This document shows, in pieces, positions 8,401 through 63,100 of a stretch of DNA of 64,000 nt. The stretch is taken from contig MQRK01227496.1 in assembly GCA_001938485.1 (NCBI GenBank), forward strand, positions 1 to 64,000, given 5' to 3'. Positions within the stretch are counted from its first letter, which is position 1, and each line of letters begins with the position of its first letter. This DNA comes from Girardia tigrina. Its lineage: Eukaryota. The notes under the pieces are model-generated. The model was given only the letters and a program-made list of their open reading frames with translations, was not told the DNA's origin and did no database searches. The translations under genes were made by a program, and so were the position numbers.

Positions 8401-11400
8401 TTAAAAAACCGTATGTAAAATGCGTGGCACGTTAAAACGTCGAAAGCTATTAATTTTTCGTTAAAAACCACATATTTCTATTTTCTTCTAATGGTTTCAC
8501 CATTCGTAAACATAAGGAATTTTTAATTTTTGGATTCAAATCAACACATATATATATATATTTATATTTTTATATACCTAAAATCACTTAGGGTAAGTAG
8601 AATCTACTTCTCAAACTATTCAAAATATAAATTCATAAAGTAAAATTTAGGCTTTTAATCTTCTTTGTAAAATTGTGATTATAAACTGTGAATAAAATAT
8701 ATATATTTTTAAAATAATATCACGTTTTTTTTCTTTTTAATCGAAAAATATATCAATCACCTAGATACATCAACATAAATATAAAAAAAATAAAATATCA
8801 TATGATTTCATAAATTATAAAATTAAAATATCATTGTTTTGATACAAAATGTCACTATCGAAATCTAAATGTAATCTAAAAACGGTTAAGTTGAAATAAA
8901 TAAAATGTTATTATAATTATAATTTTTTGAAAATGTATTTTAATTGAAATGAAAATGTACGTTAAAATGTTAATTAAAAGGTAAAGTGTTAAAATGAAAA
9001 AGTAAAATAAAATGGAAATTTAATAAAAGATGAAATTTTGTATCATGATTATGGGAAATTCTGAATTCGTACCCAGTAAATTCGTATAGAGCAAGTTCAT
9101 TTTCATTTCAAAAAAAATAATTTAGGTATATTTAGAAATTGCATTAACTTTCACTTATTCATTTATTCACTTAAGCATTATTGAATAACACATCATTTCA
9201 TTTAAGGTTTTATTAAAAAAATTTTTTCGATGTTTTAACAATTCGACGTTTTTTTTCGACGTTATTTTTTCGATGTTTTTTTCGACGTTGTAACGTGGTA
9301 CCGGTAAATTGCTAATCCAAAAATTTTGAATTGGATTTCGAAATTCTTCAACATTTGAGATAATAAATGAAAATAACTTAGATAAAATGCGTTTCAGTAA
9401 ATCTATTCCCGCGATCAAATTGTGGCTTGATGACTTTGCTATATATTGGTGGTAATTAATTGATTAACTTATGTGCCATGTCATTCACTGAAACAGATGA
9501 TATTTATGTTTTCGGAATAAATAGTATTATAATATTATTTTGTTATTATTTATAGTGGAAAAGATCTTTTGCTCCTTGCCTAAAGACGATTCAAATCAAC
9601 ATTTTCTGTTATCTTTATTTAATATTTGTCTGAAGTGTTTGTTTTTTTGCTTATTTGTCGGTTACGCTATTAAATGTATAATTGCGGGTAACCGGAGTGA
9701 ATCCACTTAAGGACGTGGTCAATATGGATGGCCCGCATCAAAACAATTCTGTCGGTACAGCACCTTTGTCGAAAGACGCCTGGAAGTCAACGAAATCGAT
9801 CGAATGCCGTAAAAATCGTTAAATGGTTTAATTAACACAAATTTCGAATAACCATGATTTTGATGATTCTGACAAGAAATTTCTAGAAAATTTGTTTTAC
9901 ACAAAATCCCCCATCTTGAATTATTTTTTTGAGTTTATATGGAAACTCTGCTGCCGCAACACTATCACAAATGGCCGCTTCCCCTCTAAAGCTTAAATTA
10001 TGTAAATTTTCTCTGTTTCTAAACCGATCAAACCACCCATTGCTAGCTTGGAATTTGAAATCATCATTTATGCTCGTGCTGGGCTCTTGTAATCTTAAAC
10101 TATCAAAGATTGATTCTGCCTTTTCTTTGACGAGTATCTTGCTTAGCAGCATCCTATGGTAATTCTGCTTATGTATCCATAATGTTAGAAGTAATTCCAT
10201 TCTGACCATTAAAGTGCATCTGTTGCGTGTACATTGTCGGGAAAACAATTGCGTGGAATTTCGGTTTCGAATGCTTTTAACTGTCGATACTAGCAAGATA
10301 AGAGACCCTGCGATTTCTACAGCCGTATGTTTACGATCAAAGCGCTTAAGTATATCCAAAGACTTTCTGGAAGATTTGCGTTTACTGCTCATGCCCATAT
10401 TAAATTTTGCAATTATTAAAACAAATTTAATGTTTAAATTAATGTTAATTAATTAATTTATTTAATGTTAAATTTTATATGGCGAAAAATAAAAAATCAA
10501 TCGACGGAAAAGCGAATAGAAGCATAGCGGGCTTTGATATATAAAATATTAATACTTAAATCACAAAATTAATTATAAACACAATTTACTGATGTTAAAA
10601 ATGATTTTCCTTTTTTTACTTAATCTTTTCCATCAGTACACTAAGCTTTATATATAAAGATATACAAATAAAAATGTGTAATTAAATTAAATATAAAAAA
10701 TGAATCTTTTTATTAAAAAATAATTTTAATCAATGCTCATTTAGCAAGCAAAGAATTAATTAACGATGACTCATTGAGTCATTTTTCAATTCATTATGAC
10801 CGAGTAATCGAGCATTACCAAATTTGTGTGCCGATAAATAATTTAATAAATGGACAGTGAATGAAATAACTCACTCTGATTGCTCAACCAATGAGAGTGA
10901 GCCTTGAGCCAGACATCAATTTCACTATTAATTTAATTTTTTGAAATTTTGTTGGGGAACGTAAAGTGAAAATTAATTTATTATTTAATTGAAATTTTGT
11001 TGAGCTTTTTATGGAGTTTTTTTTAAAGTTTCATTGAAATTGATTGTCGAACGTTAATTGTATGAGATTTAGTCAAACATCAATTTTATTTTTGAAATTT
11101 TTCAAACAGTACCTATCTTAAAATTTTATTGAAAGCTCGTTGCCGATTATTTTAAATTTTGTCAAACTTTCCTTTATTTCAAAAAAGGTTATTGAAGTGT
11201 TTCTTTTGAATATGTAATCTGCACAATAAAATGGGTCCAGCACGAACATAGAATCTTCAAATTTCAAATCCGACACTGCCACTCTATTGCTACCACCGTC
11301 CAGTCTTCGGAGCAACTTGGAGATTGGATGGAACAAGTAGCTTACTATATCGCATTATGTTTTTATTTGTATAGTATCTTATAAATTTATTAATCTTTCT

Positions 11401-13578
11401 TAAAACATTAAAAAAATATTTTCAAAAAAAATAATTTACCCATTAAAAAACATTTAAATAATTATTTTTGATTAAAAAAAGTCACTTGCATTTCTCCACT
11501 AAAAAACGTTTTCTCAATAAATATTAATTTAAAAGAGAAATTATAAAAAATAAAGTTTTCTTCTTTAATTATCTTTGAAAAGAAACAAGTAAAAAGAAAA
11601 CTAAGAAAAGGAAATTACATTAATTTAACAAGGATTAAAAATGTTATTGTAATTTAGAGAACCTAATCATGGGAGTATAATAAGTTATACTTTATACAAA
11701 TTGTCTGGGGATTATCTTTCCTAACTTATATTAAGAAACTGATTGATTTTAAATTTCTGATTACTATTTCTATTTTAGTTTAATTAATTAGTAAAAAACA
11801 TATAGGCAACGAAAAAAATATCTTTTAGTTTATTTTCGAAGCTCAAGTAAATTGTGGATCTCGATATGTTTCTAAAACTATTTGTGAAGACATTCAACGG
11901 AACGTTGAAATTTAATTTTTATTTATTTTATTAAAATTTTGTAATTAATTAAAATTAATTAATGTCTAGTTATTAATAAGTTTAATTTAAATATTTGAAA
12001 TATTATAATTTTAATTATTATTTAATGTTAAATAATATGTTTAAGTCAATATATTAGGTTGGTCGAAAAATAATGGCGGTTTTTGAGCTTTATACTTTGT
12101 TTATCTACTTTGATATGTATATAAGTTTAAATGCATTAGTGTTAGATATTATTTGAAATATTATGCCTAGCTGTATATTCCTATACCATTATTAACATAT
12201 TGCTGTTATTTTTTAGAATATTTACGGTGCTAAATTAATAATGGAAAAAATTAAAATTCGAGCAATTTTCTTGTACGAATTTAAACTTGGTCGTAAAGCA
12301 GCAGNNNNNNNNNNNNNNNNNNNNNNNNNNNNNNNNNNNNNNNNNNNNNNNNNNTTAATAATGGAAAAAATTAAAATTCGAGCAATTTTCTTGTACGAAT
12401 TTAAACTTGGTCGTAAAGCAGCAGAAACGGCTCGCAATATCAATAAAGCGTTTGGCAAGAGAACAGCTTCTGAATGCACAGTGCAACGATGGTTCCGAAA
12501 ATTTTCGGATGGAGATGAAAACCTTGAAGTTGAAGAAGGTTGTGGTCGTCCAGTTGCTGTGAACAACAACAATTTGAGGACAATGGTGGAAACAGATCCC
12601 AGTACAACAATCAGAGAACTTGCAGATTGGTTGGGCATTAGTCATTCAACAGTCTTGGATCATTTAAAACAACTTGGAAAAATCAAGAAACTTGATAAAT
12701 GGGTTCCACATAATTTGAATGAAAATCAAAAGAACCGACGCTATGAAATTTGTTCTGCCAATCATCTTCGCAATAAAAAAGATCCATTTCTTGATCGTAT
12801 TGTTACCTGTGATGAGAAATGGAACCTGTATGATAACCGACATCGATCTGCACAGTGGTTGGACAAAGATGAAGTACCGAAAGATTTTCCAAAACCGAAA
12901 CTAAGGTTATGGTGACAGTTTGGTGGTATGATGCTGGAATCATCCACTATAGTTTCTTGAATCCAGGTGAAACAATCACAGCGGAGAGGTATTGTCATGA
13001 AATTGATGAAATGCATAAAAAATTGAAAACCCTTTGTCCGGGATTGGNNNNNNNNNNNNNNNNNNNNNNNNNNNNNNNNNNNNNNNNNNNNNNNNNNGAA
13101 ATGCATAAAAAATTGAAAACCCTTTGTCCGGGATTGGTCAATCGAAAAAGTCCCATCCTTCTTCATGATAACGCTAGACCTCATATTTCAAAAGTGACTC
13201 TTCAAAAGTTTAATGAAATGGACTATGAAACCCTGCTTCATCCACCATATTCACCAGACCTCTCGCCAACGGTCTTCTACTTTTTCAGGCATTTGTACAA
13301 CTTCCTACGTGAAAAAATTTTCAAAAACCTAAATGATGCTCAAAATGCCTTCCAAGAATTCGTCGCTTCGAGAACCGATGCATTTTATGCTGCTGGAATA
13401 AAACAACTTGTTTCTCGTTGGCAAAAATGTATTGGTGCCAACGGTTCATACTTTGATTAATAAACTTTTGTTTCTGTGAATTTGCACGTCTTTGAAGTTT
13501 TTGTCCCAAAACCGCCATTATTTTTCGACCAACCTAATATAACAGTAAGTCTGTTTTATAAAATTTGTATTTTTAATG

Positions 13579-16181: not shown

Positions 16182-19100
16182 AAATAAGGGAAAATTTTTA
16201 ATCTGTCATTCATTTTACGTTTTTCCTAAAAACTATTTTATTGAAGAAAAATCAAAGAAAATAAATGGAAGTCCCATTACCCTGAAATCTCATTTATTTA
16301 TATTCAATACAACTGCTTCCTTTCCTATTTAGTTTTAATTTGCTGTTGTTCGGCATATCAAAGTTATATTATTTATTTTTATTCTTTCTTCATGAATAGA
16401 AAATATTAATAAAATTATTAGTAAAAATAATATTCTTCCGTCTGTATTTTTATTCTTTTCAGAAATTTAATTATATTTCTGAGTTCAAAATAGTTGCTTA
16501 CTTTTCCACAATTTTACGAGATCAAGTTTTCAAATGTATGAATAATTCAAACATTATTATTTAAAAAAATATATTAAATTTTATACTAAAAACATTTAAT
16601 TTATCCATATGTCAAACATGTATTAGAAAATAGTGTATCTAACAAAACGAAATATTTAACAAAAACGAAATTTAATAAGTGAGTTTCAGAGGGTTTCAAA
16701 ATATTTGTGGTTATTGCGATTCAAAGACAGATATTTGAAAATCGGCTTAGGAGTCATAGGTTCCCTCGTTTTGAAATTTTTCCTTCACAGTTAGCAATCT
16801 TTTATCTTTAACCCTGCAGTGCTAACACGATTTTTGTAACATTAGTACTAACATCCATTTGTACGACCGAATTCAGAGAATGCTATTTTATTCATATACT
16901 TGGTATTCATATAGTACTTTTTTGGTAAAAAAAAGTATAGCAGAACATAGCAACAAATGTGTTACGATGATTTGATGAGAAATGTGGGGTTCGGTCTGAG
17001 AACGGAAAGTTAGCCCTGGAGGGTTAAAAGTACTACAGAATTATAAAGTCAGATAAAAATGTAATGGAAATTCAAAAAATCATTTTCATATAAACATCAC
17101 CATAAGTTTGATACTTAAATATTTCTCTTATATTAATAATATTAATAATATTAAATCATGTTAATATGTTAAACCTATTGGAACATTAATTACATTAGTC
17201 TAAGTTCGTATGAGCTATTAAATTCAACGTGCTTTAACAATAGGCTAATAAAATTATTCAATTAAAGTGACTTTGTATAATACTGCTTGACTTAAGCAAA
17301 AGTACTTTCTTATTACCCTTCATGACTGAAACGTCAGCTAGGTTTTCTAAAAATCTCTAACTATAGTCTGTGGTGCTGCATTTCACAATAATTCTCTAAC
17401 TAAATCCAGCAATGTATCATAGGTTGTCCTCCATTTGTCCTGAAGTATGCAGTACAGCACCCGTGGAATTACTCGTTGAAAATGAATTATGTAGAGTTGG
17501 TAGAATAAACTGGGAACAACTTTAAAGAGACAACAGCGAAAAAGCATTTTCCTCGAATGAACTAATTTAATAATTGCTTGTCACCAAAAACTATGAAGTT
17601 ATATAATATAAACTCATTGTATGATGGTGATACTTCAAAAATAATATCATTAGAAAGAGGAGACAAAGATCTACCAACATCTCTGTTGCTTATAGAATAA
17701 ACTGAATGGATGTTGGAGATAAGATGCATGGGGATTAAGAGACCGACACCTCTTTTAGCCTATTTCAAAAGTCAAAATTTAACATATTTCATTAAAACAA
17801 AAACAATTTATTATCATAAATTTAACTTTGATGTAGTTTTACTGTAACTAGTCCAAATTATTTCATTATCTCATAAAAATTAAAACATATTAAAAATTGA
17901 AATATAAAATTCTTTACTACAATAAAAGAACTAAAAAAATAAACTAATTTAAAATAATAATATTTCATTAAAATAAATAAAAAAATTCCAGAAAAACGAA
18001 TATTAACATGTAAAGTTCAAAATGTAAAATATTATATATTTTATAATTTTTATATTAATTCTTAAAATTGAAAAAAAATTTTTCTAAATAATGTAATAAT
18101 ATTTTTTGTAAAAGAAATATATTTTTTTAAATATAATATTTTTCTCCATTTTTCAAAATAAATGTTTTATCATGCACGAAAAATAAAGTTTCGTTTTTAC
18201 ACCTGAACAATGGCTGCCTTTTTAGAATCTTTTTCTTTTTTACAAACTCTTTTTTCAAAGTAATTTAAATAAAAAATATTCTTTGTATATTAAATAGATA
18301 TTTTATAAAAATCAAATCAGATTTTTAAATAACTTTAAATAAAAATGGAAAAATTTTAATATTAGAATTACATAAATAAATAATGAATTATTAAGAGAAT
18401 TATTAATTAATATTAGAATATTAATTAATAAAATTCGTTTCATATAAATATATTTTTTAAAAAAAGAGTCCCGTATAATTTTATTCATAATCACTATTTT
18501 ATTTAAATAATAATGGCAATGAAAATTACACGAATTGATATTCATTAAATAATTTTTTTACATATGATTAATTCAATTTTAGTAGTCAATGGCCGCAGTT
18601 GGGTATTTCGGATCTCGTCCGATCTCTGAAGTCAAGCAACCAACGGCCGTGTTAGTACTTATTTGGGTGACCGATAAGGAAATCGCGGGGCCATTGACTA
18701 CAGGTCAGGTCAGGCAATCTGTCTGCTACAGGTCCCATGTAAATCTGTAATACCTGTCCCATGGTCGATTAGTTGGCGACGAAACCGGCTGCCTCACCCA
18801 GAGCAACCTGGATGAAGAGGTGTGTGGACACCTAGCAGGATGAAAAACAAAACATAGCAAAGGGCGGATGAGCTCCTTGGAGCCAACGGCCATCCATACC
18901 TGGAGAGGAGATAGGCGCCACCAGGTTCCTTGCCCACTGAGACACTCAAATATATATGCAAAACTCAAGCCATGCTTATGCATAAGCGAGTGCACCCACG
19001 GCCCAAAGGCTACGGTACTAAAAAAAATTCAATTTTAAAGATATTTAACAGAATTATTTAAATATTTTATAATTTTTATTACACGAATTTAAAAGAAAAA

Positions 19101-22100
19101 ACTATTTTTACGAATTTATTTCAATTACATATTTTTCAAGAATTATTTTTCTATATTCTGATATAGATTTTCATTTAAAAAAATTAATTAAAAAAATTAT
19201 AAGTAAAATTTATATTAACTTACAAAATAAAAGTTCTATCTGAGAGTCGTAAAGAATAAATCAGTATATAAATGCAGAATGATGATTAAGTAAATGATTG
19301 TCTGAATATCGTTCCAATCATTCTAAATAAGCCCTTATTAGAACTGTCGTTTGAACACGGATGTTACAAAGAGTATGTGATACTATTTTTTGTTTGATCG
19401 ATTAACCTCTTTAATCAGTAAAAATAGACAAACAACTATAGTAAACCAAATATTATTAAATAAACGCAACACGGAACAGAAAGCAAAAATAGAAGTATTG
19501 TCACCTTGCTAATGAAATAAACACATTCAATGAACAAATAGTTTGATCTAATGTTTTTGGCTATTGAATTGTATTAACATGAAGTTAACAGAAAAAAATA
19601 CCTCTGATTTTTTTTGACCAAAGTCATTGGGCTGTTGGTGCATCCAATCTTGCACAAGCCTTTTGCGGATTGGTTCTTACATATTTATTGTGTGCATCAG
19701 TAGTAAGGAAGTTTCACTGACGCAACCCGTTTCTGAGTGTCCTATTAAATCAGCCTACTTAATGAGCTGCCGACTTTTGGAAAGTTCGTGTAACACAAAT
19801 TATCATCGTGTAACACAAATTGCTCACTAACTAGATCTCGCTGATTTCAAGGCAACAGTTTGTTGGATTGAAAGATGGAAGCAACGATATTTAATTATTT
19901 TTAGAACCATTGTAGAAAAATCAGATAGCATTCACACTGCTGTGGTAAGCTATAGAATTAATGACCTTTGCTTGTTATAATCCGTATGAAACAGCATATG
20001 TACAGTATTGATAAGCACATGTGCAGTCTAGGCAGCCTAGGCTTAGTGCAGTATTGATATTTGCACTTTTTTGTGTAATTTTGATGGTTTTTACATGTTT
20101 TTCATGATTTTTAAGGTGTTTTCCATGATTTTTAAGGTGTTTTTCATGGTTTTTAAGATAACAATGATGGTTTCTAAGGTGTATATATAATATACATAAT
20201 NNNNNNNNNNNNNNNNNNNNNNNNNNNNNNNNNNNNNNNNNNNNNNNNNNNNNNNNNNNNNNNNNNNNNNNNNNNNNNNNNNNNNNNNNNNNNNNNNNNN
20301 NNNNNNNNNNNNNNNNNNNNNNNNNNNNNNNNNNNNNNNNNNNNNNNNNNNNNNNNNNATGGTTACGGTAACCATGATACTTTGATAGGTGATGCCTGGC
20401 CTAGGCCTAGTCTAGGCGATGGTTACGCTGAGGTACATTAGATGATTATACAGATGTTATGTATTATATCCATGCATGCTTGAAGTACAATAGGAGTTTT
20501 TACATGTAGATTTTACATATAAAATAAAATGTTATGTATCTTTGTTACGGTAACCATGATACTTATGATTATACTTGTGTACATTAGGAGATTCATGAGG
20601 TATTGTTTGATTGTAAACAACATACATATATCATACGGGTTTCAGATATGTACATATAGATTTTTGAGCACTTTTTTGAGAATTTCAGAAATTTTCGAAA
20701 AAATCGATATTTCAGCATTTTTTCGAAAATGTTGACATGGAATCTGAATGTACGTATATGGGTTTCTATTCAAGTGCATAAGCTTTTTTTTGATATTCTG
20801 CTTTCTTGTACCTTTAAAATCAATGTGCAATATGTGCAAATTTGAACATTATGCTTATTATAGAGAAAAGTAATCAATATATGGAAATTTGAATTGCATA
20901 TTCAAATAGAGAATCAAAATGTATATCAAACACATGATATTGAATTTTGACACTTGTAGTTTTAAAAAATTTTATGTATTGATTTTTACACTTTTGCACA
21001 TGTGCAACTTGAAAAGCACTGTGCTAGCACATTATAAATGTGTGGCAAAATGTGCACTACCGATTAGTACTTTCAAAATATTCCTTAGCACCTCTGAGCA
21101 CTGTGCATTGATCGGTTAGCACTTTTTTCTACGGTCCTTAGTTACGGGGTGATGGTTGCTATGGACACGAGAACCGTTATCATGGTTACAACCGCCTTGG
21201 ATCACTGTATCCGTTTCTAATGAAAAACGTCCCTTGGTTACCCTTACTATGGCAACCATGACCTTGGTTACCGTGACCAAGTGAACCGGAACCGTTGCTA
21301 GGGAACCCAGGAACCAATCAGAAGCGTTGCTAAGGTGATCGCGACCGTTGCAATGGTAACCGCGCGCGGTAACTGGTTATGTTGCCATGGTAACCACGGT
21401 AACTAGGTACGACCCCCCGGGGGGGTTGGTCCAAAACATACATTTTTCCCTTACTAATTCAACTTATTCCAAACTGCGATTTATCCATGTTGGACCTTAA
21501 GAAAACTAAAATTTTGAATAATTCTGAACATTATTTGGTTCTCCTGAAATACTTCGACTTAATCAGAAATTCGAGTTAGCACTGTATTTAAAAAGGACAA
21601 CCCTTTTTATCTTAATTTTTGGTTTAAACTTCGATTTTTATTTAATTTTTGTACATTTTTTAATATCAAATAAAAGTAAGAAAAATTATAAGAACATATT
21701 AAATAATTATTTTTATTGGAATTAAAATTAAAAATATTAATTAATTTTATTATATTTAAATATATATAAATATCAGATTTTTTTAAATAAACTTTTACTC
21801 TAAAATTTTTAAATAAGAATAGTTCTATATTAATTTGATGGAAAATATTTTATTTTAAAAATATTATTTTTATTGTTTAGTAATTGAAATTTTTTAAGTT
21901 AGTCACATAGTTATATCAATTATTACTTAAAATATTGTATTATATATAAAAATATTTAAAAGCACTTTAAAAGAGACATTAATTAAAGTCTTGCGGCGCC
22001 CTCTGCGGTTAAAAGGGTACAAATTTTTATATGGTTATTACATTTTTATTGCCTTAAATGATATTTCGGCACATTTTTTTAATATTTCTTTATTTTTGAG

Positions 22101-25100
22101 TGATATTTGAAATAAATAATTTTTAAATGTTTTTTATAGAAAAAAAATTAATATTTTAATTTGCTGTGACAGCGCCATTAATTAGCGTCTGTTCGTGTGA
22201 AATATAACGATCTGTACACTTACCACGAGTTGCTTTCAATAAACTGAGACAACCAACAATTAAAAGAAAAAATAAATTTATATTAATAATAAATATTAAA
22301 GAAAATATTTTTTATGAGTTTCCTTAAAATTGGTAAAAAAATATTCTTTTTCGGAAATTTTAATTATAAAATAGGTTAAATTTCCAATGAGATATTTTAA
22401 TAATAATTAAAAAACGAATTAAAGGAAATTAATTTATTGGATTGTTCGGAAAGTCATTTCGTTTTTTTGTATTAAAGTAAAAGACAAATTTTTATGACGA
22501 ATAAATATTTTATTGAAATACATATTGACCATTGTGGTCCAATACCTTCTTCCATCTTCCTGGCAGTGACATGATTCCACATTCATAAAATATTTGTTCT
22601 TTGCTGCTAAAAAATCTTTTCCAGGTTATTTTTAACATCTTCATTTGATCCAAAGTGTTACCATCTAAATAATTTTGTAGAGACCAGAACAAATGATAAT
22701 CAGAAGATGCGAGGTCTGGAGAATATAGTGGGTAAGGCATGATGTTCCATCCAAGCTGTAAAACCTTTTGGCGAGTTACCAAACTTGTATGAGGTCTGGC
22801 ATTAACTTGGTGAAACACTACACCTTTTCTATTGATCAATTCTGGCCTTTTGTGTTCAAGGGATTCATTTAATTTGTCCAGCTGATGACAGTAGACGTCC
22901 GAATTGATCGTAGTTTGTCCGGAAGAAGCTCATAAAATACGATTCCTTTGAAATCCCACCAAACCGATAGCATCACTTTTTGTTTATGAAGTGCTTTGAG
23001 CAGGTTGATCGTTTTTAACTCCAAGATCTCTTGCGTTTTACATTATTGTAGACTACCTATTTCTCATCTCCAGTGACGATGCGCTTCAAAAATGGATCAT
23101 TTTCTTGAGGTTTGAGAAACATATCGCAGATGTCTAAACGACAGCATAAATTTCGTTGGGTAAGATTATGAGGAATCCATGTTTCGAGTTTTGATGTAAA
23201 ACCTAGGCGCTTCAAATGATCATGGACGGTCGAATTAGATAAATGTAATGTCTGGACAATTTCGCGAGTTGTTATTCGCCGGTTTGGATCAATTAATGTC
23301 TTTATTATGTCTTCGTCGGCCTCAATGGGCCTTCTGGAATCTGAAGAATCTTCAACATCAAAATTTCCGGATCTAAATTTTTTAAACCAGTTTTGGCATT
23401 TGCGTTCTGTCAACACATCTTCTCCATACACTTCGCATAATTTTCTTCTGGCTTGTACAGCATTTTTACCTTTTCGGAAGTAAAAAAGTAATACATGAAG
23501 TAAATGCTGATTCTTATTTCCCATCTTTGATAGGTCAAAAATCAAATATAAATGTTTTTAATTATTCCAAAATTTTCCAAATCTAACCTTGATTACCAAC
23601 TGCTAAAATAAATAATATAGTCAATGATTATTAATATAAAAAATACATTTAAAACAAATATTAAAAAAACGAGATGACTCTCCGAACAACTCAATAATAA
23701 TAATTCAATAATTAGATTTAATTAAATTATTTTTATAAGGAAAAATAAATCAAGTTTTTCAAAGAAATGTTAAATCATTTATTATTTGTTAATTGTAAAT
23801 GTTGTTCTGTCCTAATGTTTTATATATAATGGAATATAATAATGGAATATAATGGAATAATCAAAGATTGCGTTTTTGACCAAGTCCGAATATAAAAACT
23901 AGAAAATACAGAAGGTGTATTAAAATTTAAATTCAGTTATCCATTCTACAATCTGATTTTTAAAAAATTTTGATATTTAAAAAATATAATAACTGATTCT
24001 CTTTTAATGTATTTCTTCACCGTAGATTATAAATAGAGAACCCGAATGAGCCAATTCATTATGTTTTATTATAATTTATTCTCACAGGGAAAATCACTGA
24101 ATGTTGATAAGATGATATATTTCTAAATGGTAGTTATCTCTAAAAACATTGAAAATGGTCCTCTACATTTCATTCCGAAAAAATAGTCTGAAAGATGCAC
24201 TCTGGTCCAAACGACCAGTTGAAGTTCCTGGCAACAAAAAAACAACCCTGATTGATTCACTTATACTTTTGGCGACAAGAAAAATCCCAGAGGCCCTAGA
24301 AAGATTCAAATCAAGTGCTGTAAATTATTTTTAAAAATGTAGATTAGTAACTCTACTCGTGGTTGCCGAATAAGCTATAAGAAATAAATTTAGTGAAACG
24401 TAGAGACATTTGCGATTCACTTTATAACTAGAACAGAGTGATTTATTTTGTTTTTACAACCATACGAAGCGGGATGAGCCTGTCAAAACGATCCCAAAGG
24501 TTTCTTAAAGAATTTTGACGAATAAAACCTTCAATTTAGATAGATCTTATGATACAATACAACATATATGATACTCAATACAACATACAAGGTTTTGCCA
24601 ATCATCAGAAACTTTATTTTGTAAATAATACGGATTTAGGACCGACGATAATTTTAAATTTCAACTATTTAAAGGGTACATAATTGGAATTGCATTTTAT
24701 GTTACTATAGGATGTGAAGTTCAGCCAAAAAACTTGGTACTTCCAACGAAAAATCAACCCAGTATTTTAAGAAAATTAGTAAATTCTCAAATGTTTTTCA
24801 CTGGAGGAAAATCATTTAAATTATTGAATATTATGATTTCTTGAGTGAAACAATCATTTTAATTTCCTCTTCTTTGTCTTATAAAATATCACAATCTCAT
24901 TTAAAAGTTATGGCATAGTAATTAAATATTTATTTTATATACTGTTGTTTTATATACTTGGGAAATTTCCATTCATTTTTTATTCTTCCTAATCTTCTTA
25001 TTAACATAGAAGTATAGGGATCGATTTTTTTAGCTTTTTTGTATATTGCATTCATGTCCGGTTGAACGATGCAAAACGAAACTTCACAAACTTGTCATTT

Positions 25101-40100: not shown

Positions 40101-43100
40101 AAAAAGAATGATATCTTGTACCTAAAAAGTTTTTTAAGGGTTTCCTTCAGTCTAATGATTAATTTAAAATTTTTAATTCGATTTTGATGAATTAGAAGTG
40201 TTAATAAAAGCAGAAGCGTCGCTAGGCGGATGCAGGGGGTGCGGACTGCACCGGGTGACACAATCTCAGATGGTGTCACTAAATGAAAAATACAACGCGG
40301 AAATAACCCTGTATAAAGAACCAGACGTTAGGCTAAGGTTAACTAAAAAACACAGGTTATTCGGAGTCTATGACGTCAGTTTCTGGTTTATAAATATTAT
40401 TATGTCATGTCATGTTGATTTAACTTTACCAGTAATTATATACTATGATAAAGTAACGCACACTTTCGTTGACTTGTTCTGAAATGATTCAAAAGGTTCT
40501 GGTACATAGCTACTGCAGATACCCTACAAAAATACATTTACAATGCATGAAGGCGGATTGGGCTCCACTGCCTCCACACTTAGAATAAATCTGGAGGGGT
40601 GACACCGTGACTTTATCGCACTGAGTGACACCAACCCTAGCGACGTCACTGAATAAAAGTTTATCCTTTTATTTTATTATTTTATTTTATTTATCGTCAA
40701 AATTATTCAAAACTAAATTGTCTAAATTCATTTAAGGGTTTCATATTCTTATATTAAAACTTAAACTTTTTGTCATAATTTTAATACTAACTTTTTATAA
40801 TGTAGTATTAAAAATATTTTTTATACTTATAAAAAAGCATACTGAAGAAATTGTTTTAAATCAATGATTCGATTTAGGTTTCCCATAATTAATTAACATA
40901 TTAAATATAATAAAGTAGTTTTCTAATAAATAAATAGTAAATAGAAAAAATACATTGAAAGAGAAACATTAAGTTTCTAAATATTAATTTTAAATTTTCG
41001 TCATTAAAAATAAATAAATAAAATTTCCAAATGTATAAAAAAATAAATTTATTTAATGATCGATCTATTATTTAAAAATAATCCAGTAATAGATTAATAT
41101 AAACTTTGTCTCAAATTTTATTTTATATTTGTAGTAATCTTTTAATTGCATTTTTTTGTATGGTTAGATTGAGGATTATAAGTTATTAACATTTAAGTTT
41201 TGATCAAATTATTAATTGAATTAATTAATTTATAAAATAAAACTTTTTGTTATAAAACAAAATAAAGATATTTTTTGTAGAAACAAACGGAAAAGAAAAT
41301 TACTTGGATTAATTTTGTTATGTACAAAATGTTTATCGAAGGAATCTGATGTTTTGTTCTTCTTTCCATCCGCTTTGATTCCGGACTGAAATGGATTTTG
41401 TGTCGGGTAAATTACTTGGGCAATGTCTTCGGCCAGCGCTAAATAGATACAAATACTATTGATAAAATAGAATTAAAAAATATTTATAAATATTCAATTA
41501 AATTATTAAATATAGAAATTTATTTTAATTAAAAATAATTACATACATTCAGATTTAGGTTTTGCATTTCAATGTATATATTTTGATGATAAAATCAATA
41601 ATTTCGTAAAAAATTTGGAAAAAAAACGAAGAAATACAAAACAAATGTATTTAGTCGGTGTGCGATTGTCTTGCACTGACCGAATGTGTTGACAAAATTT
41701 TATTATCATAAAACAAGTAGAAAATTAGGGTCACAGAGGACCACAGATAAAGGGCCGTTTTAGACTACAGCGTCTTTTAAACGTCCAGTGATTGAATTCG
41801 TTCCAGGATTGAGTTGGTAGGCGTATCCTTGGAACAGGGATTGTAGCAGAGAGTGTTGTGCTTCGCCCAAGTTGATGCGCAGTGTTTGATGTTGGAGATT
41901 ACACATCTTCTCCTGAGATTATTGATTACGGTTTCGGATAACTTCAAATCCACTAGTACCTCGTTGTTCTTTTCTGGCCAGGATCCGAGACATCCTACGA
42001 CAATAGTCCCGAGTTTAATGTTCCATCCTGGGTATTTGGTTTTAGCTTCTTTTTCCAGGGGCTCATACTTGGTTTCATTGAGTTCTCTTGCAGACTTGAG
42101 GTTTTCAGTCTCGTCATACGGAGTTTTGATATCAAGTAGCCATAGAGTTCTTCCTCCTGNNNNNNNNNNNNNNNNNNNNNNNNNNNNNNNNNNNNNNNNN
42201 NNNNNNNNNNNNNNNNNNNNNNNNNNNNNNNNNNNNNNNNNNNNNNNNNNNNNNNNNNNNNNNNNNNNNNNNNNNNNNNNNNNNNNNNNNNNNNNNNNNN
42301 NNNNNNNNNNNNNNNNNNNNNNNNNNNNNNNNNNNNNNNNNNNNNNNNNNNNNNNNNNNNNNNNNNTTTTTGCTCAGAGCATCAGCCGATCTACCAGCAT
42401 TCGCTTGTCTTGACCAATCCACAAATTTCTGGTGACGATATAGTCTGTGAAATTGGAAGGATAGAGTTTTTTTGTTTGCGGCAGAAATTGTCAACGATTC
42501 TTTGGTTACTGAGTGTCACCAGTGTCAAACTTGGTACAGTTGAGAGAACACACTATTCTCTCAGATTGTCATTTTGTAACACATTTCAGTCGAATTGTAT
42601 CGATGAGATTTCGGATTCTTTTTGGTTAATTGTGAAGGCTAAATTTGTGGATTGCATTGAATGTGAAACGTTTTTGATGTCTTATCAAATATATCATTTA
42701 AATAATGTAGTAATATTTATTATAATGAATATTAAATCTATAATTTATCCCAAATCTATCAGTTATCACATGATAATCATGATTTCATGAAGAAGAAATG
42801 TAGCGTTTTCTTTTAGAACAAAAATAATCTTGGGGATGATGATTTAAGGTTGCCACAGAATAACACGGTAGAAGGTCGGTGATGGTATTGATGGTATTAT
42901 TTCAGAGTTAATTTGAGCGCTACTTTGTTTCCAAAACCATTCAATTGATAGGAATGTATCAACATTTTATAGAATTGTCTAATTCCCTTTTGCGGGAATG
43001 AGCGCAACAACATTTCTGCAAGACCTTTCCAAGGTAGTGAACAGCTGGTTTGAGATTATATGAATTCCTGTGATATCTAAAGTATATAATAACCCCGAAC

Positions 43101-48159: not shown

Positions 48160-51100
48160 ACGTAAGAGTTTTTTGTTTCTAATTCGTTTGTCTAAGCGAA
48201 TCAGTTATTACAGAGTTTGATATCTAATAAAGATTACTAAGGATTATCGATTGCTTTATTATAGAAATATTAATTAACTGAAATTGAATGTCTAATTTAA
48301 AAGAACAGATAACTTTACCATGTGATTATATTTTTAATGTGGATTATTTTATGAAGACATTTGAAGATAATCATATAAAAATGTCCGAAGAAATCATTTT
48401 ACCTGCTGTTGCGTCTCTAATGAGAAATCCGTCAAATCCAGTCGTATTTTTCGATGTCAGTGTTGGTGGTCAGGATATTGGCAGAATACAGTTCGAATTA
48501 TTTGCCGATATTGTCCCGAAAACTACGGATAATATCCGTCGATTTTGTACGGGTGAATACCGTAAAGATAGAGTTCCTATTGGCGACGAGAACTTTGAGA
48601 TGAAGCATGATAGTGCCGGCAAATTGTCCATGAGATCGCATATCAAAGGAACTGACGAAATTTTAGCACCCACCTAAATTTGTGGAAACATTCATGGTCA
48701 ATGGGAAAGAGAAATGACCGTCAGAAGGCTAAGAAAATTAAAATCGGCAGAAAAAATATGCATGAAAAAAAGTTACAGCAGTCAATGAAGAACAATCCAC
48801 ATTAAATACAACATAAATCGAAAAAATAATTGTAGAGTGGATTGCGATGTGCCACATTCAGAGAGGATAGAATTGAATGAAGATTCGCCATACACTTATG
48901 AGCATTAAAACTTGACCGAGGTGTTGCAAACGTATTAATGGTATTCGTGGTGCAGAGCCCATTTACTTTAAATTTAAAAATCTTTGATTTTTATTTTGCT
49001 TATATTTCAATTATTGTTCACAAAATAGTAATTGAAAAAAGTTAAAAATTATTTTGTTGTCACCAAATATTTTGATTTTATTACAAAAATAATCGTCAAC
49101 GTATTTTCAGAATCGTCACAAATTATAATTAAAAAGTGGTCTATTTAAAAAAGTCATTTAAACAATCACTGACCACTTGCTCTAATTGGCCAGCCAATCA
49201 TAGCGAGTCATTTAATAATTCCTCTAATTCGGTCATTCAAGTCCCAAAACTATTGAAACATTTTGTCAATCTTCAAATCCATGGGTTACATAATAATGTT
49301 TTTTTTGCATCTGATAAATTTTAATAGTTTATGTTAAAAATTTTTTTCGGTATTCATTATCTTTAAAGAAAAATACCAAACGAAACGTTTTTCCCATGAT
49401 AATTAACGACCCTGTAAATATCCTCTAATGATAAAATGACATTTTTATAATGATTTTAACATATAAATAATTTTTGAAAAGCCTTTTAATATTTAAATAT
49501 TCTGATTTAAAAATTCAAGTAAATATAAATATGAAAGTGTAACAAATTTGTACTCAAATAATACTTTTTATAATTTCAAATAAATGGATATATCAGACAA
49601 TTATTAATATTTATTATCATTATTATATTATTACGAATGTTATTAAAATGAATTAAAATATTTATTAACCGTCAAAACTGCATCCAAACATAGCAAATTT
49701 AATACAAATCATAATAGCATTGTGTGGATCCACAGGGTATATCTTTATGGATGATGCGATTATGGCGGGGATAAAACTCGTCCGACTCTGGGTTCGGGCA
49801 TCTGTGTTTATTGGAATAATCTGAGAGTCACAACTTTCATTTAAATCTGTTAATTAGGAAAATATTTTTACTGTTTGATTTTCTGTAGTTCTATATTCGT
49901 AAACTCGACCATTTGACTCTCTTTGATAAGTTATTCTTATTGTCGGAACAAATTCAATATACTGAAACCAATAAACTGATAAAATAGAAATATAAGAAAA
50001 AAATGTTAAAAATTGTTTGTTGTGTCATCCTTTCAAAAACATTAAACATAAAGTTCTTTTATTATTTTCAATAAATTAATTTGAGATATTAAGTAATTCG
50101 ATAATTAAAGCATAAGGTAAAAATTTCTGCAAACATTTTATAAAAATTTACATAAAAATGTTTATAGAAAGTTTAAAAGTTACATTGTAAATGTTAAGAA
50201 TTTTTGTCGAAAAGCTTTTTAATATTCAGTAAAGCTTTTTTAAGAGTTTAATTGAATCAATTACAAGTTATATTGGAAAAACTTGTAAAACCATAAATAT
50301 AATAATAAGATATAAAATTTGAGGAAATTAAATTAAAAAGTTTATTTAAATTGTGTTATAAGTTAGAATCAGCCTCCCCCAAACTGTAGAATAACATCAT
50401 AAACTTCATTTGAGCACAGTGTATTGAATCACAGACTCTTTATTAGGTAGAAACTATAAAATAAACAATGCTCTCGCATGGCTTCAGACTTGGGAGTGCC
50501 AGGTTTCAGTGTACGGGTACAATTTTGCTTATAATTTAAGAATAACAATTCATGATCCCGAGATATTCAAAATAAATAGATGTAGAAACACTTTTATCGC
50601 ATTAGGTAAATGGACAGTTGAACATTCCTCTGTTTGCTTGTTTTCCCAGCCTGAATATTATTATTTTCCTTATGATCACTTCTTAGTGTTACCTAAAGTG
50701 ACTGGAATATGATATACTGTCTAATTAAAAGCATGTGTTCTTCTGTTTTCTGTGATATTTGAAGTTTTTATTATGTGATTGATCAACCTATGTCGCTGCA
50801 ACCATCAATTCATTTTGTCACTTTTGTGTTAGTTCCTAATGAGGCAGGAAGAGGATACAGCTCATATTTATCACTGAGACACTGGGCCCAAATTTATGTT
50901 AGTAATGCGTCGTTAAAGTTTCTTCCGTTCAGCTCATTATTTGTTATTAAATATTATGAGGAAGTCTTTTAGACAATAAATGTTACTACTACAAAACACA
51001 AGTATTATTTTTTTGTCTATAAACGACTTTTCGAGTGCTGGAAAGAAATGGACAACTCGCCGAAACTTTTAAATTACATTGTGTAACTTCCAAATAACTA

Positions 51101-60100: not shown

Positions 60101-63100
60101 AGAAGTATTTTTTTAATAAACAATTGTTTAATAACAGTTTTCAGTTAATAGGTTTTTGTTTTTTCGTTAATTATAAATTGAAACGCTATTAATTATTATT
60201 AATTATAAGGAAAAAAGAAAGATCTTTTATATAATGAGGAAAAAGAATTTTTTTCATAATATTGAAAGAAATATGTTTTTCGCATTTTGTTTTATTTTTT
60301 TCTTTAAGGGTTATATTCTTTATCGGACCGACATGCGATTAAATATTTGGAATATTTAATCAATTTAATATAATTATTTAATTGATTTATAATATATTTG
60401 TCTAAAGTGTTAGTTTATTTGTTTTTTTTCGTACACACTGTGAGGAATATTTTAAATTGTTTAAATGTGTAAATGTATTGATGCTGTATATTGATTTAAG
60501 TATGTTGAATTTAGAATGGTGATTCTCCCACCCAGATGAAAATTGGTATTTTTTATTAAGTTTAAAGGATTGACTATTCGAATATAATTAAAATAATCAT
60601 TTTATAAGTTCATATTTTTAATTTAACAATTAAAATTAAGTTTAATATTTTTTGGTAAAATTTAAATTAAATGTATTTTTAATAATTTGATGACATTTTT
60701 ATTATTTTGGGATTTATTGAGAAATGAAAAAATTTATTATTTTTAATTAATATTAATTAATATATTTTAAAAAATGACTTAGAAAAATTGTTTGAATAAT
60801 CATAATTAAAAATAAAAATGAGAAAATCAATTAGAATGATGACAAATGATGAAAGACTTTCTAGAGTCATAATGTTTCTAGATGTGATTGTAATAAAAGT
60901 TCAAATGCGACTTGTCTAAATGTTCTTAATATGGCGACACACGACCACGTGACAGCAATTATCAAGGGACCGGAGACATTCGATGGGTCAGAAGTAAAAT
61001 TAGAAGAATTCCTAATAAGCTTTGAGAGATATTCAAAGATTTTTGGATTTAAGGAAGAAAGAAAAGCGATATTAGTTACAGTATTCATGACTTCCGAGGC
61101 GATAAACAAATATGAGAAAACACAAGGAGACAACTGGGAAACAAGAATAAGAAGTGCATTCTCTAAAGATAGAAATATTTTTGAAATAATAAAGGAGCAT
61201 GTAGAGATTAGAATCGGGGATAAAAATCCATCAGAAGTATTTAAAAAGATTGATGAACTAGTGGAAAAATGAGTTGAGAAAAATGTAGGAAAAAAGGAAT
61301 TTTCAGATCTAGCGTACGCCAACGCCATCGAAGATAGAGAAGTAAGAAGAGAAATAACTCTGAGAAATGCTCCAAAAGCAGAAGATATAAAAAATATCCA
61401 GGAGAAAATTTACGAATTTGAATTGAAAGACAGGAATATAAGAGTAGACGCGTACACGACAAAGTAAAATAAAGAATGGAAGAAAGTAGAATATAGAACA
61501 AGAAGACTGAAACCAAGATACGAAGAGAGAAAGTACGAAGAACCAAGAAGAAATTTTAAAGCGAGAAGGATCATATGTCGAGCCTACCATGAAGAAGAAC
61601 ATGTGAGACGGGAATACCAAATGTTAAATGCAACCATTGTAACAAGAGAGGGCATGTAAGAACACAATGTTATGAGAATCCAAACAGATTTACAGAACGC
61701 GAACAATCTGGAAGAGAAGATACAAGGAATAGAAGAAATGAACGAAAAGAATACACAAACACACAATACAGAGGTCGGATAGGATATACGAATAGAAGAG
61801 ACCAAGTAACAGAATTAGAATACTCCGATGACGAGTGGGAAAGAATGTCGGAAAGATCGAATAATAAAAGAGGAAGTCTAACAAGAAGAGTAAATATTAC
61901 AAACAAGAAAATTTCAGAGACGAACCGCGAAACGAGGAGGCACGGTCACAGGGAGAAGTGATCAGTGCACTTCACTAAGAAACGAATGTATGCGTATGTT
62001 TGACTGTGAGAATGATTGTTTGTATGATGACGTATGCTGTGTAGGGGATGCTGTTGAAAATATTCATCAAGAATTATGTATATTAGATGGTAAAAACGAA
62101 ATACACAATGATAAAAAAAGAGTTCCTTAAGACGTTCAAAAAAACAAAGGATTTAGAATTTTACTCTCAAAATTATCAGATTTACATCTGAGAGAAAATT
62201 TACAATATCTACAACGATACGTATATGTTAATAATTCATGAAGCTCATAATTCCAATATAATTCATAAAAATGCTTAAATTGCTAGGTCATGTGTGAATT
62301 GAAAAAAACTTTAAATGCTATGAACTGAAAATTCTTTTGGCCAGATACGACAACAGATATAAAAAATCACGTTACTTAACCTGAAGCCTTTCGAGAATTA
62401 CAGACGAAAACACTCGCAAATAAAGGTCATCTATAAATATTTTTTGTAAATCAATCATTTGAAATGTTTGAAAAAGAAAAAAAATTATGGTCCTTTTCAT
62501 TGTACTAAAGATGGACATTTTTTTAGGCATCATTGTCTACTTTTCAAAATATCTGTCTCTAATTCATATTAAGAAAATATATTTGAATACGATTAACACA
62601 TTGAATACTGAGTACGAGATATCTCGTAATTTAACGTTATATGCCTGCCGCGCGGCAGTAAACTTTTTTGTCCCACGCGTTTAGACGTTCGGTGCATCAA
62701 CAGCAGTCAATGTGTTAAGAAAATTAGTCCTTACAGGACCAACAAATATTGGAATGTGGGAAACCAGAAAAGATTAACTCAAATATAGTTAATTTTTCGA
62801 TAAAAATTCAGAATTTATTTTGTTTCAATAACAATAGTAAAATGTTTTTGTTACGAATAAATATTTTGTAAAAACTTCACTCTAATTTTAATGAAGTATT
62901 TAACAATTATGTATGTATGACGTTATTAAAATAGATTGATATAAATGGTCATTTAAATTTTATTTTACCTCTTTCTAAATTGTTTATGTTCAAACCATAA
63001 ATTTTAAAATATTTTTTGATGCTAATTCAAGAACAATTAACTGAATATTAATTATTGAATATTAATTCATTTGAATTATTTGATTTTATAATTTCATATT

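What the first reader, a model, noticed from the sequence alone, without database searches (positions are those of the whole stretch)
18582..19025. 5S-derived SINE whose 120-nt head keeps the 5S fold through compensatory changes
Seen: the head is exactly 120 nt and closed by a perfect 13-bp helix GTAGTCAATGGCC/GGCCATTGACTAC, longer than 5S helix I. Pairings gttgg/ccaac, ccgtg/cgcgg and cttatt/gataag occupy the positions of helices II, V and IV although their sequence differs from standard animal 5S. There is no TTTT anywhere in 444 nt of an otherwise very AT-rich locus. It has a 3' hairpin (ggcc-caaa-ggct), an A-tail and a 12-bp TSD. Known: SINE3s use the 5S internal Pol III promoter, Pol III stops at T-runs, and folded 5S RNA binds TFIIIA and uL18/L5. 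Inference: a Pol III retroposon under selection to mimic the 5S RNP, possibly to reach ribosomes as Alu does through SRP. I cannot place the body in a named SINE domain, so the family may be undescribed.
Basis: partly seen in the sequence, partly recalled or inferred. Interest (0 to 1): 0.7.

Follow-up and report, generated by a model that had tools for sequence, protein, structure and literature searches.

The report
Flatworm 5S SINE built on RTE
This is one copy of an abundant short jumping element in a flatworm genome, made of the host's own 5S ribosomal RNA joined to the two ends of a host retrotransposon whose enzyme it likely borrows, a design already known from other animals, and its 5S part has decayed rather than been kept as a ribosome-part mimic.

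Summary
The element is real: a dispersed, high-copy SINE3 with A-tail and 12-bp TSD (40 of 40 scored hits 91-100% identical; 3,540 first-look candidates). The body is not unplaceable: it is the first ~270 nt plus the last ~47 nt of a 3.2-kb host RTE-type LINE. The architecture (5S head + bipartite RTE) is that of HaSE3, CoeSINE5 and SINE-1_Pmo. The 'compensatory changes' are mostly the host's own 5S sequence (104 of 115 positions identical in the young consensus). On the SINE lineage, loop A lost 4 nt, canonical helix II collapsed, 3 of 36 pairs broke (3.7 expected at random), and no inner pair changed on both sides, so 5S-RNP mimicry is not supported. What survives is a SINE-specific extension of helix I to 13 bp; its outermost pair likely went from A-U to G-C between old and young subfamilies. 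TTTT absence is unremarkable (P=0.53). The host is a flatworm; a Dugesia preprint already reports SINE/5S and LINE/RTE expansions at class level, and this scan noted what reads as the same family twice on other pieces of this genome.

The parts
18570..18581 (+). 5' copy of the 12-bp target-site duplication
   Evidence: exact repeat at 19026-19037
18582..18584 (+). SINE-specific 3-nt 5' extension (host positions -3 to -1); pairs with 18699-18701; likely the Pol III start, restoring the start-to-box A spacing (48 nt against 49 in host 5S)
   Evidence: start site itself inferred
18585..18699 (+). 5S rRNA-derived head: host type-I 5S positions 1-119 minus 4 nt of loop A; 15 substitutions in this copy, 11 of them at family-diagnostic positions
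18630..18644 (+). box A of the type-1 Pol III promoter (host 50-64; limits recalled from the Xenopus numbering), one family change
18647..18652 (+). intermediate element (host 67-72), unchanged in the family consensus, one change in this copy
18660..18677 (+). box C (host 80-97), two family changes
18700..18703 (+). 4-nt joint replacing the 5S T-run terminator; its first two letters extend helix I; old subfamilies have two more T here
18704..18972 (+). first ~270 nt of the host RTE-type LINE (whole 5' UTR from its first base, ATG at 18956-18958 and a few codons)
18972..19019 (+). last ~47 nt of the same LINE, with the small 3' stem-loop; predicted recognition site for the LINE protein
19020..19025 (+). 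A-tail (the LINE ends in AAG repeats instead)
19026..19037 (+). 3' copy of the TSD; holds the first downstream T4 run (19033-19036), the predicted Pol III stop for this copy

Best explanation
It is a copy of a non-autonomous SINE3 made of host 5S rRNA fused to the 5' and 3' ends of a host RTE-type LINE; it is likely transcribed by Pol III from the 5S internal promoter and likely copied into new sites by that LINE's endonuclease-reverse transcriptase through the shared 3' end. Shown: the three-part anatomy, the dispersed copies with TSDs and A-tails, the partner LINE, and a stepwise series of five subfamilies drifting away from both parents. Inferred: the head serves as a DNA promoter, not as a 5S RNA mimic; it was born by a template switch from a full-length-5' RTE RNA onto 5S RNA, with loss of the 5S terminator so that Pol III reads into the body; the 4-nt loop A deletion moved the start site 3 nt upstream, and the new 5' letters are kept paired with the joint, giving a 13-bp stem that folds the head away from the RTE hairpins that the LINE protein would need.
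For: Copy number and uniform structure; exact 22-mer head-body joint 272 times, control 0. TSDs of 7-13 bp in 27 of 52 young copies with both ends. Host 5S. Body = LINE 5' end: 82-86% to 7 separate LINE loci among 30 fetched, 88.9% to the consensus of 22 LINE 5' ends, 15 of which begin exactly at the base where the SINE body begins; old subfamilies 92.9-93.4%, young 89.9%. Tail = LINE 3' end: 4 LINE loci; the oldest subfamily differs at 2 of 47 letters, read by eye. LINE is 3,233 nt with one endonuclease-RT frame running to the last codons and an AAG tail. Subfamilies O1, O2, I1, I2, Y from 113 non-redundant copies, 15 unassigned; divergence from own consensus 11.8, 12.8, 10.6, 6.1, 4.1%. Constraint lies in the RTE part: 27 differences break 3 of 61 predicted local pairs against 7.9 expected, P=0.009 for Y (0.047 for I1; 0.07 and 0.13 for O2 and O1); in the head 3 of 36 against 3.7, P=0.44. 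No self-cleavage at the joint: no HDV-like fold by my descriptor in SINE or LINE 5' end (it found 2 of the 3 control folds), none in Rfam, and 27 of 30 loci picked by a body motif keep 5S sequence upstream.
Against: Pol III transcription was not shown: only contigs were available; SINE pieces lie in two metatranscriptomes (34 and 6 contigs) and one contig of a probable RNA run, which can be DNA or read-through. Promoter boxes are not measurably more conserved than the rest of the head (3 changes against 3.9 expected). RTE-clade membership rests on architecture, not on a tree with named references. The body test cannot tell whether the constraint acted on the LINE or on the SINE lineage, and its structure is predicted. 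No headless bipartite precursor was found (4 distinct loci, 3 with head sequence). TSDs were not detected in 25 of 52 copies.
Confidence: 0.9

Rival explanations
1. The head is under selection to mimic the 5S RNP (TFIIIA, uL18/uL5) and reach ribosomes, as Alu does through SRP9/14.
For: The head still folds as a three-armed structure (z = -4.38) and would form first during transcription (helix I probability 0.99-1.0 up to 420 nt). Loop C, the L5 site according to PMC3257258 (passages), has one change, and the loop E core is kept; helices IV and V stay formed. Helix I was lengthened.
Against: Loop A, the high-affinity TFIIIA site (PMC3257258, passages), lacks 4 nt in all five subfamilies; canonical helix II is lost; two helix III pairs became G-U; 0 double-sided changes in 36 pairs across subfamily consensuses and across 49 young copies; breaks at the random rate. 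In hagfish SINE1 the Alu-domain claim rests on compensatory substitutions (PMC7245038, passages); these are absent here. Rfam score fell from 107.8 to about 60 bits.
Confidence: 0.07
2. The 5' extension is a mechanical by-product: at the end of reverse transcription the cDNA or the enzyme folds or jumps onto the partner strand of helix I and copies a few letters, so the 5' end matches the joint without selection on RNA structure.
For: It would give exactly this complementarity and its change between subfamilies. One copy (L003) has helix I partner-strand repeats stuttered upstream of its 5' end.
Against: The extension stops at -3: T at -4, which further copying would give, is seen in 12 of 42 young copies, no more than background (P=0.90). 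It may have made a master copy, but does not recur at each insertion.
Confidence: 0.25
3. A set of 5S pseudogenes or one-off 5S-LINE chimeras rather than a SINE family.
For: One-off 5S-LINE chimeras exist in this genome (L039, L044; L047 has the ribozyme-like fold but no LINE match).
Against: Hundreds of copies share one joint, one internal deletion and ordered diagnostic changes.
Confidence: 0.01

Closest known systems
5S-headed SINEs with bipartite RTE bodies: CoeSINE5 (coelacanth), SINE-1_Pmo (python), HaSE3 (Helicoverpa) (PMC5786205, parts 1-4 of 5 read; PMC3272025, passages)
   Same: 5S head with boxes A, IE, C, followed by RTE 5' UTR sequence and a ~45-nt RTE 3' end; partner RTE in the same genome.
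   Different: [quoted passage not shown] Five short motifs of this family were not found in that paper's one supplementary file.
'SINE/5S' and 'LINE/RTE' classes reported as expanded in Dugesia genomes (bioRxiv 10.64898/2025.12.11.693146, passages)
   Same: Same repeat classes in planarians; possibly this very family.
   Different: The passages give automated class totals only, with no anatomy, partner or subfamilies; its supplements and repeat library could not be seen.
SINE1-1_EBu of hagfish and Alu (PMC7245038, passages)
   Different: 7SL head with compensatory substitutions keeping the protein-binding domain; here the protein-binding junction of 5S is deleted.
Cassandra and Ajax TRIMs (PMC10886601, passages)
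   Same: 5S sequence captured as a Pol III promoter; Ajax does not keep the 5S fold.
   Different: Those are LTR elements; this has no LTRs and ends in a LINE tail.

Membership tests
SINE3 | 5' head derived from 5S rRNA with boxes A, IE and C | tested here: met
   box limits recalled from Xenopus numbering
SINE3 | dispersed copies of one uniform short composite with tail and variable TSDs | tested here: met
SINE3 | non-coding, 3' end shared with a LINE of the same genome | tested here: met
   (no sense-strand frame of 100 aa)
SINE3 | transcribed by RNA polymerase III | not testable with these tools
   only contigs of RNA runs
Bipartite-RTE SINE | [quoted passage not shown] | tested here: met
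   both parts in one 3,233-nt element, L103
Bipartite-RTE SINE | partner belongs to the RTE clade | tested here: inconclusive
   architecture fits (single endonuclease-RT frame, no ORF1, 3.2 kb, AAG tail; homologues of about 1,000 aa); no tree with named references; these clade features are recalled
5S RNP mimic | loop A three-way junction intact | tested here: not met
   4-nt deletion in all five subfamilies
5S RNP mimic | canonical helices II-V kept by compensatory change against host 5S | tested here: not met
   0 double-sided changes, 3 of 36 broken against 3.7 expected, helix II probability at most 0.02
5S RNP mimic | loop C and loop E core kept | tested here: met
   one change in loop C; loop E changed only at its edge, positions 102-103; may be inheritance and promoter overlap
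5S RNP mimic | binds TFIIIA or uL18 | not testable with these tools
   needs pull-down or binding assay
Named SINE bodies (CORE, V, Deu, Ceph, Meta) | conserved central domain between head and LINE part | tested here: not met
   only 4 nt lie between the 5S head and the LINE's first base
Catalogued family in Repbase, Dfam or SINEBase | an entry with this sequence | not testable with these tools
   those libraries are not held

The most novel reading that the evidence does not exclude
The SINE has evolved its own terminal stem, absent from 5S, and uses it as a switch: the 5' hexamer pairs with the head-body joint while the RNA is being made (13-bp stem), but in the finished RNA can pair with the RTE tail instead (predicted 3.7 kcal/mol better in the young consensus; helix I probability 0.05), bringing both ends together and gating access of the LINE enzyme. 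The outer pair changed from A-U to G-C along the master lineage (G at -3 in 0 of 16 old and 38 of 58 later copies; A at -3 in 11 of 16 old).
Probability: 0.12. Interest if true: 0.55.

Novelty: new member of a known kind. Interest (0 to 1): 0.24.

Why it matters
Modest. It extends 5S + bipartite-RTE SINEs to flatworms and gives a clean case in which both parents (5S gene, RTE LINE) and five successive master versions sit in one genome, so each change can be ordered. The subfamilies could serve as markers for planarian phylogeny and for curating automated 'SINE/5S' annotations. The covarying terminal stem is a small, testable handle on what a SINE3 head needs beyond its promoter.

Tried and rejected
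Ribozyme at the head-body joint: the LINE's sharp 5' start suggested one, but an HDV-like descriptor found none in SINE or LINE 5' end (it found the folds in L039 and L047, missed L044), Rfam at E<=5 found none in 2 SINE and 3 LINE loci, and headless copies do not pile up at that base (3 of 30 loci, 2 distinct, lack 5S sequence). A hammerhead-like stretch in the body lacks core letters (seen by eye, not tested further). tRNA-related segment: none by ARAGORN on the window or Rfam. TTTT avoidance as evidence of selection: P=0.53. Purifying selection in inserted copies: stems changed more than loops (4.6% against 2.7%, non-CpG; 49 copies), as expected of neutral decay of GC-rich stems. Headless bipartite precursor: 6 pattern matches, 4 distinct loci, none shown headless. 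Whole-element fold is not unusual (z = -1.5). Expression: contigs only, no start, end or strand; summed contig depth in run X1 (about 10^6 over the head, about 10^2 on the left flank) is not a copy number. Raw reads of organism E cover only a 40-nt piece of the RTE part. ESM Atlas gave no answer for two proteins. Literature searches for a description of a planarian SINE3 family listed none beyond the class-level preprint; PMC11410931 had no SINE passage. PMC7614390 and PMC2111863 (passages) gave nothing usable; the fixed-distance rule for the 5S start site is recalled, not confirmed in a call.

Full report
Observation. The window shows a 438-nt GC-rich island (18582-19019) in AT-rich DNA, followed by an A-run and flanked by a 12-bp direct repeat. 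Rfam finds 5S rRNA at 18585-18699, 60.9 bits, the only match in the window. The 120-nt head folds far better than shuffles (z = -4.38); the whole element does not (z = -1.5).

A family. The element has 3,540 first-look candidates in the genome; all 40 scored match almost end to end at 91-100%. Of 30 loci fetched, 25 are non-redundant, with unrelated flanks and the same ends. The exact 22-mer across the head-body joint occurs 272 times, an older form 37 times, reversed controls 0. Exact TSDs of 7-13 bp were found in 27 of 52 young copies with both ends; the shortest may be chance. Pieces occur in runs labelled as four organisms and in biofilm, sediment and leaf-litter metagenomes; laid contigs cover head, body and tail in organisms A, B, C. 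Mitochondrial cox1 pseudogenes read AAA where Asn and ATA where Ile are expected (conserved positions recalled) on a T-rich strand, which points to the flatworm code; a freshwater planarian is the likely host.

Host 5S. The Rfam search of the genome (46 matches of 47 scored; 30 matches examined) gave true 5S genes at 104-108 bits, followed by T-runs. All 36 canonical pairs form in this sequence. The young consensus differs by 11 substitutions, a 4-nt deletion in loop A and three added 5' letters; this copy has 15 substitutions.

Body. Searching for LINE endonuclease domains (126 matches of 150 scored; 30 loci and 20 longer stretches fetched) showed the body in the 5' ends of 7 separate LINE loci at 82-86%, and the tail at LINE 3' ends. 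One locus holds both, 3,233 nt apart end to end, with a single decayed endonuclease-RT frame and an AAG tail; its relatives are proteins of about 1,000 aa. This is RTE architecture. Of 22 non-redundant LINE 5' ends, 15 start exactly at the base where the SINE body starts, 4 nt after the 5S. So the SINE is 5S + LINE 1-270 + LINE last 47 nt, the pattern described in PMC5786205 (parts 1-4 of 5 read) for CoeSINE5, SINE-1_Pmo and HaSE3.

History. 113 non-redundant copies sort into O1 (12), O2 (13), I1 (9), I2 (15), Y (49), with 15 unassigned. Changes accumulate in order; old bodies are nearer the LINE (93%) than young ones (90%); divergence falls from about 12% to 4% (samples are biased to well-preserved copies, and the O1 and O2 consensuses carry some noise). 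This copy belongs to Y, 95.7% to its consensus.

Test of 5S mimicry. The 11 changes break 3 of 36 pairs (16-62, 17-61, 72-103); the same changes placed at random break 3.7 (P = 0.44). Two weaken pairs to G-U, two close former mismatches (80-96, 10-109), none is double-sided. Loop A, bound mainly by TFIIIA (PMC3257258, passages), is deleted from the oldest subfamily on. In its favour, loop C and the loop E core (PMC4511217, passages) are nearly intact and the head would fold first during transcription. By contrast the RTE-derived body does show structure-sparing divergence: 3 of 61 predicted pairs broken against 7.9, P = 0.009 for Y, weaker for older subfamilies.

What is SINE-specific. Helix I grew from 9 to 13 bp. 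Old copies have A at -3 (11 of 16, P = 0.013 against background) facing U at the joint; after the joint lost two T, later copies have G at -3 (38 of 58; 0 of 16 old; Fisher P = 1e-6) facing C (five of the old copies were picked by a pattern fixing -2 and -1 but not -3). The extension brings the distance from the 5' end to box A to 48 nt, against 49 in host 5S, which fits the recalled rule that Pol III starts at a fixed distance from the internal promoter. Selection for a closed stem or a one-time templated fill-in could each explain the pairing. In the full RNA the same 5' letters are predicted to pair with the tail instead, in O1, I1 and Y but not O2, with differences of 0-5 kcal/mol, within prediction error.

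Mechanism. Likely: TFIIIA/TFIIIC-dependent Pol III transcription from -3, read-through of the mutated terminator, stop at a flanking T-run (19033 here), recognition of the RTE tail and perhaps the 5' UTR hairpins by the LINE protein, target-primed reverse transcription with 7-13-bp TSDs. Transcription and mobilisation are inferred, not shown.

Novelty. The design is known. SINE3 was listed for vertebrates and some insects in PMC7245038 (passages), but a Dugesia preprint (10.64898/2025.12.11.693146, passages) reports SINE/5S and LINE/RTE expansions; its supplements could not be seen and may hold this family. Four paper searches listed no family description. Two earlier notes of this scan reach the same reading on other pieces of this genome; they are not independent support. 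Verdict: a new or merely uncurated member of a known kind; interest 0.24.

Noticed in passing
L037, L039, L041, L054 (e.g. G000:C193406:120-238 and 431-549, - strand): A second, divergent 5S rRNA type (94 of 119 identical to the main type, 91-100 bits for intact copies), with double-sided changes in helices I, II and V and two copies 311 bp apart. It could be a second host 5S class or a contaminant.
   Followed up: partly
L039, L044, L047, just 3' of the 5S match: Single 5S copies joined through 2-6 letters to HDV-like ribozyme folds; in L039 and L044 this is the 5' end of another LINE family (endonuclease, RT, C2H2 finger). None of the 50 LINE loci and stretches checked had 5S upstream, so these look like one-off 5S-LINE chimeras joined at the ribozyme cut, the kind of event that founds a SINE3. 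L039 and L047 share a similar upstream flank.
   Followed up: partly
window 19627-19710, - strand: A 5'-truncated, decayed copy of an old subfamily of the same SINE (74% over 86 nt) 600 bp downstream, in opposite orientation.
   Followed up: partly
window 18727-18764 (body); LINE 5' UTR positions 26-61: Two interlocking complementary pairs (7 bp and 6 bp) could form an H-type pseudoknot kept in LINE and SINE; the first hairpin of the UTR shows a U-A to C-G double change between LINE and SINE, seen by eye (positions 8 and 23).
   Followed up: no
window 18641-18649, 18885-18893, 19003-19011: A similar 8-nt motif occurs in the 5S head, the LINE 5' UTR and the 3' stem-loop; chance or a repeated protein site.
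   Followed up: no
L003, upstream of the element's 5' end: Stuttered repeats of the helix I partner strand precede the 5' end, suggesting a template jump or fold-back at the end of reverse transcription.
   Followed up: no
window 12217-13460, 22510-23557, 9883-10452, 41777-42373, 48288-48677, 60865-61961: Frames that look like mariner and pogo-type transposase remnants, the endonuclease end of an R2/NeSL-like element, a cyclophilin fragment (Pfam hit) and a gag-like LTR fragment (labels other than the Pfam hit are by eye).
   Followed up: no
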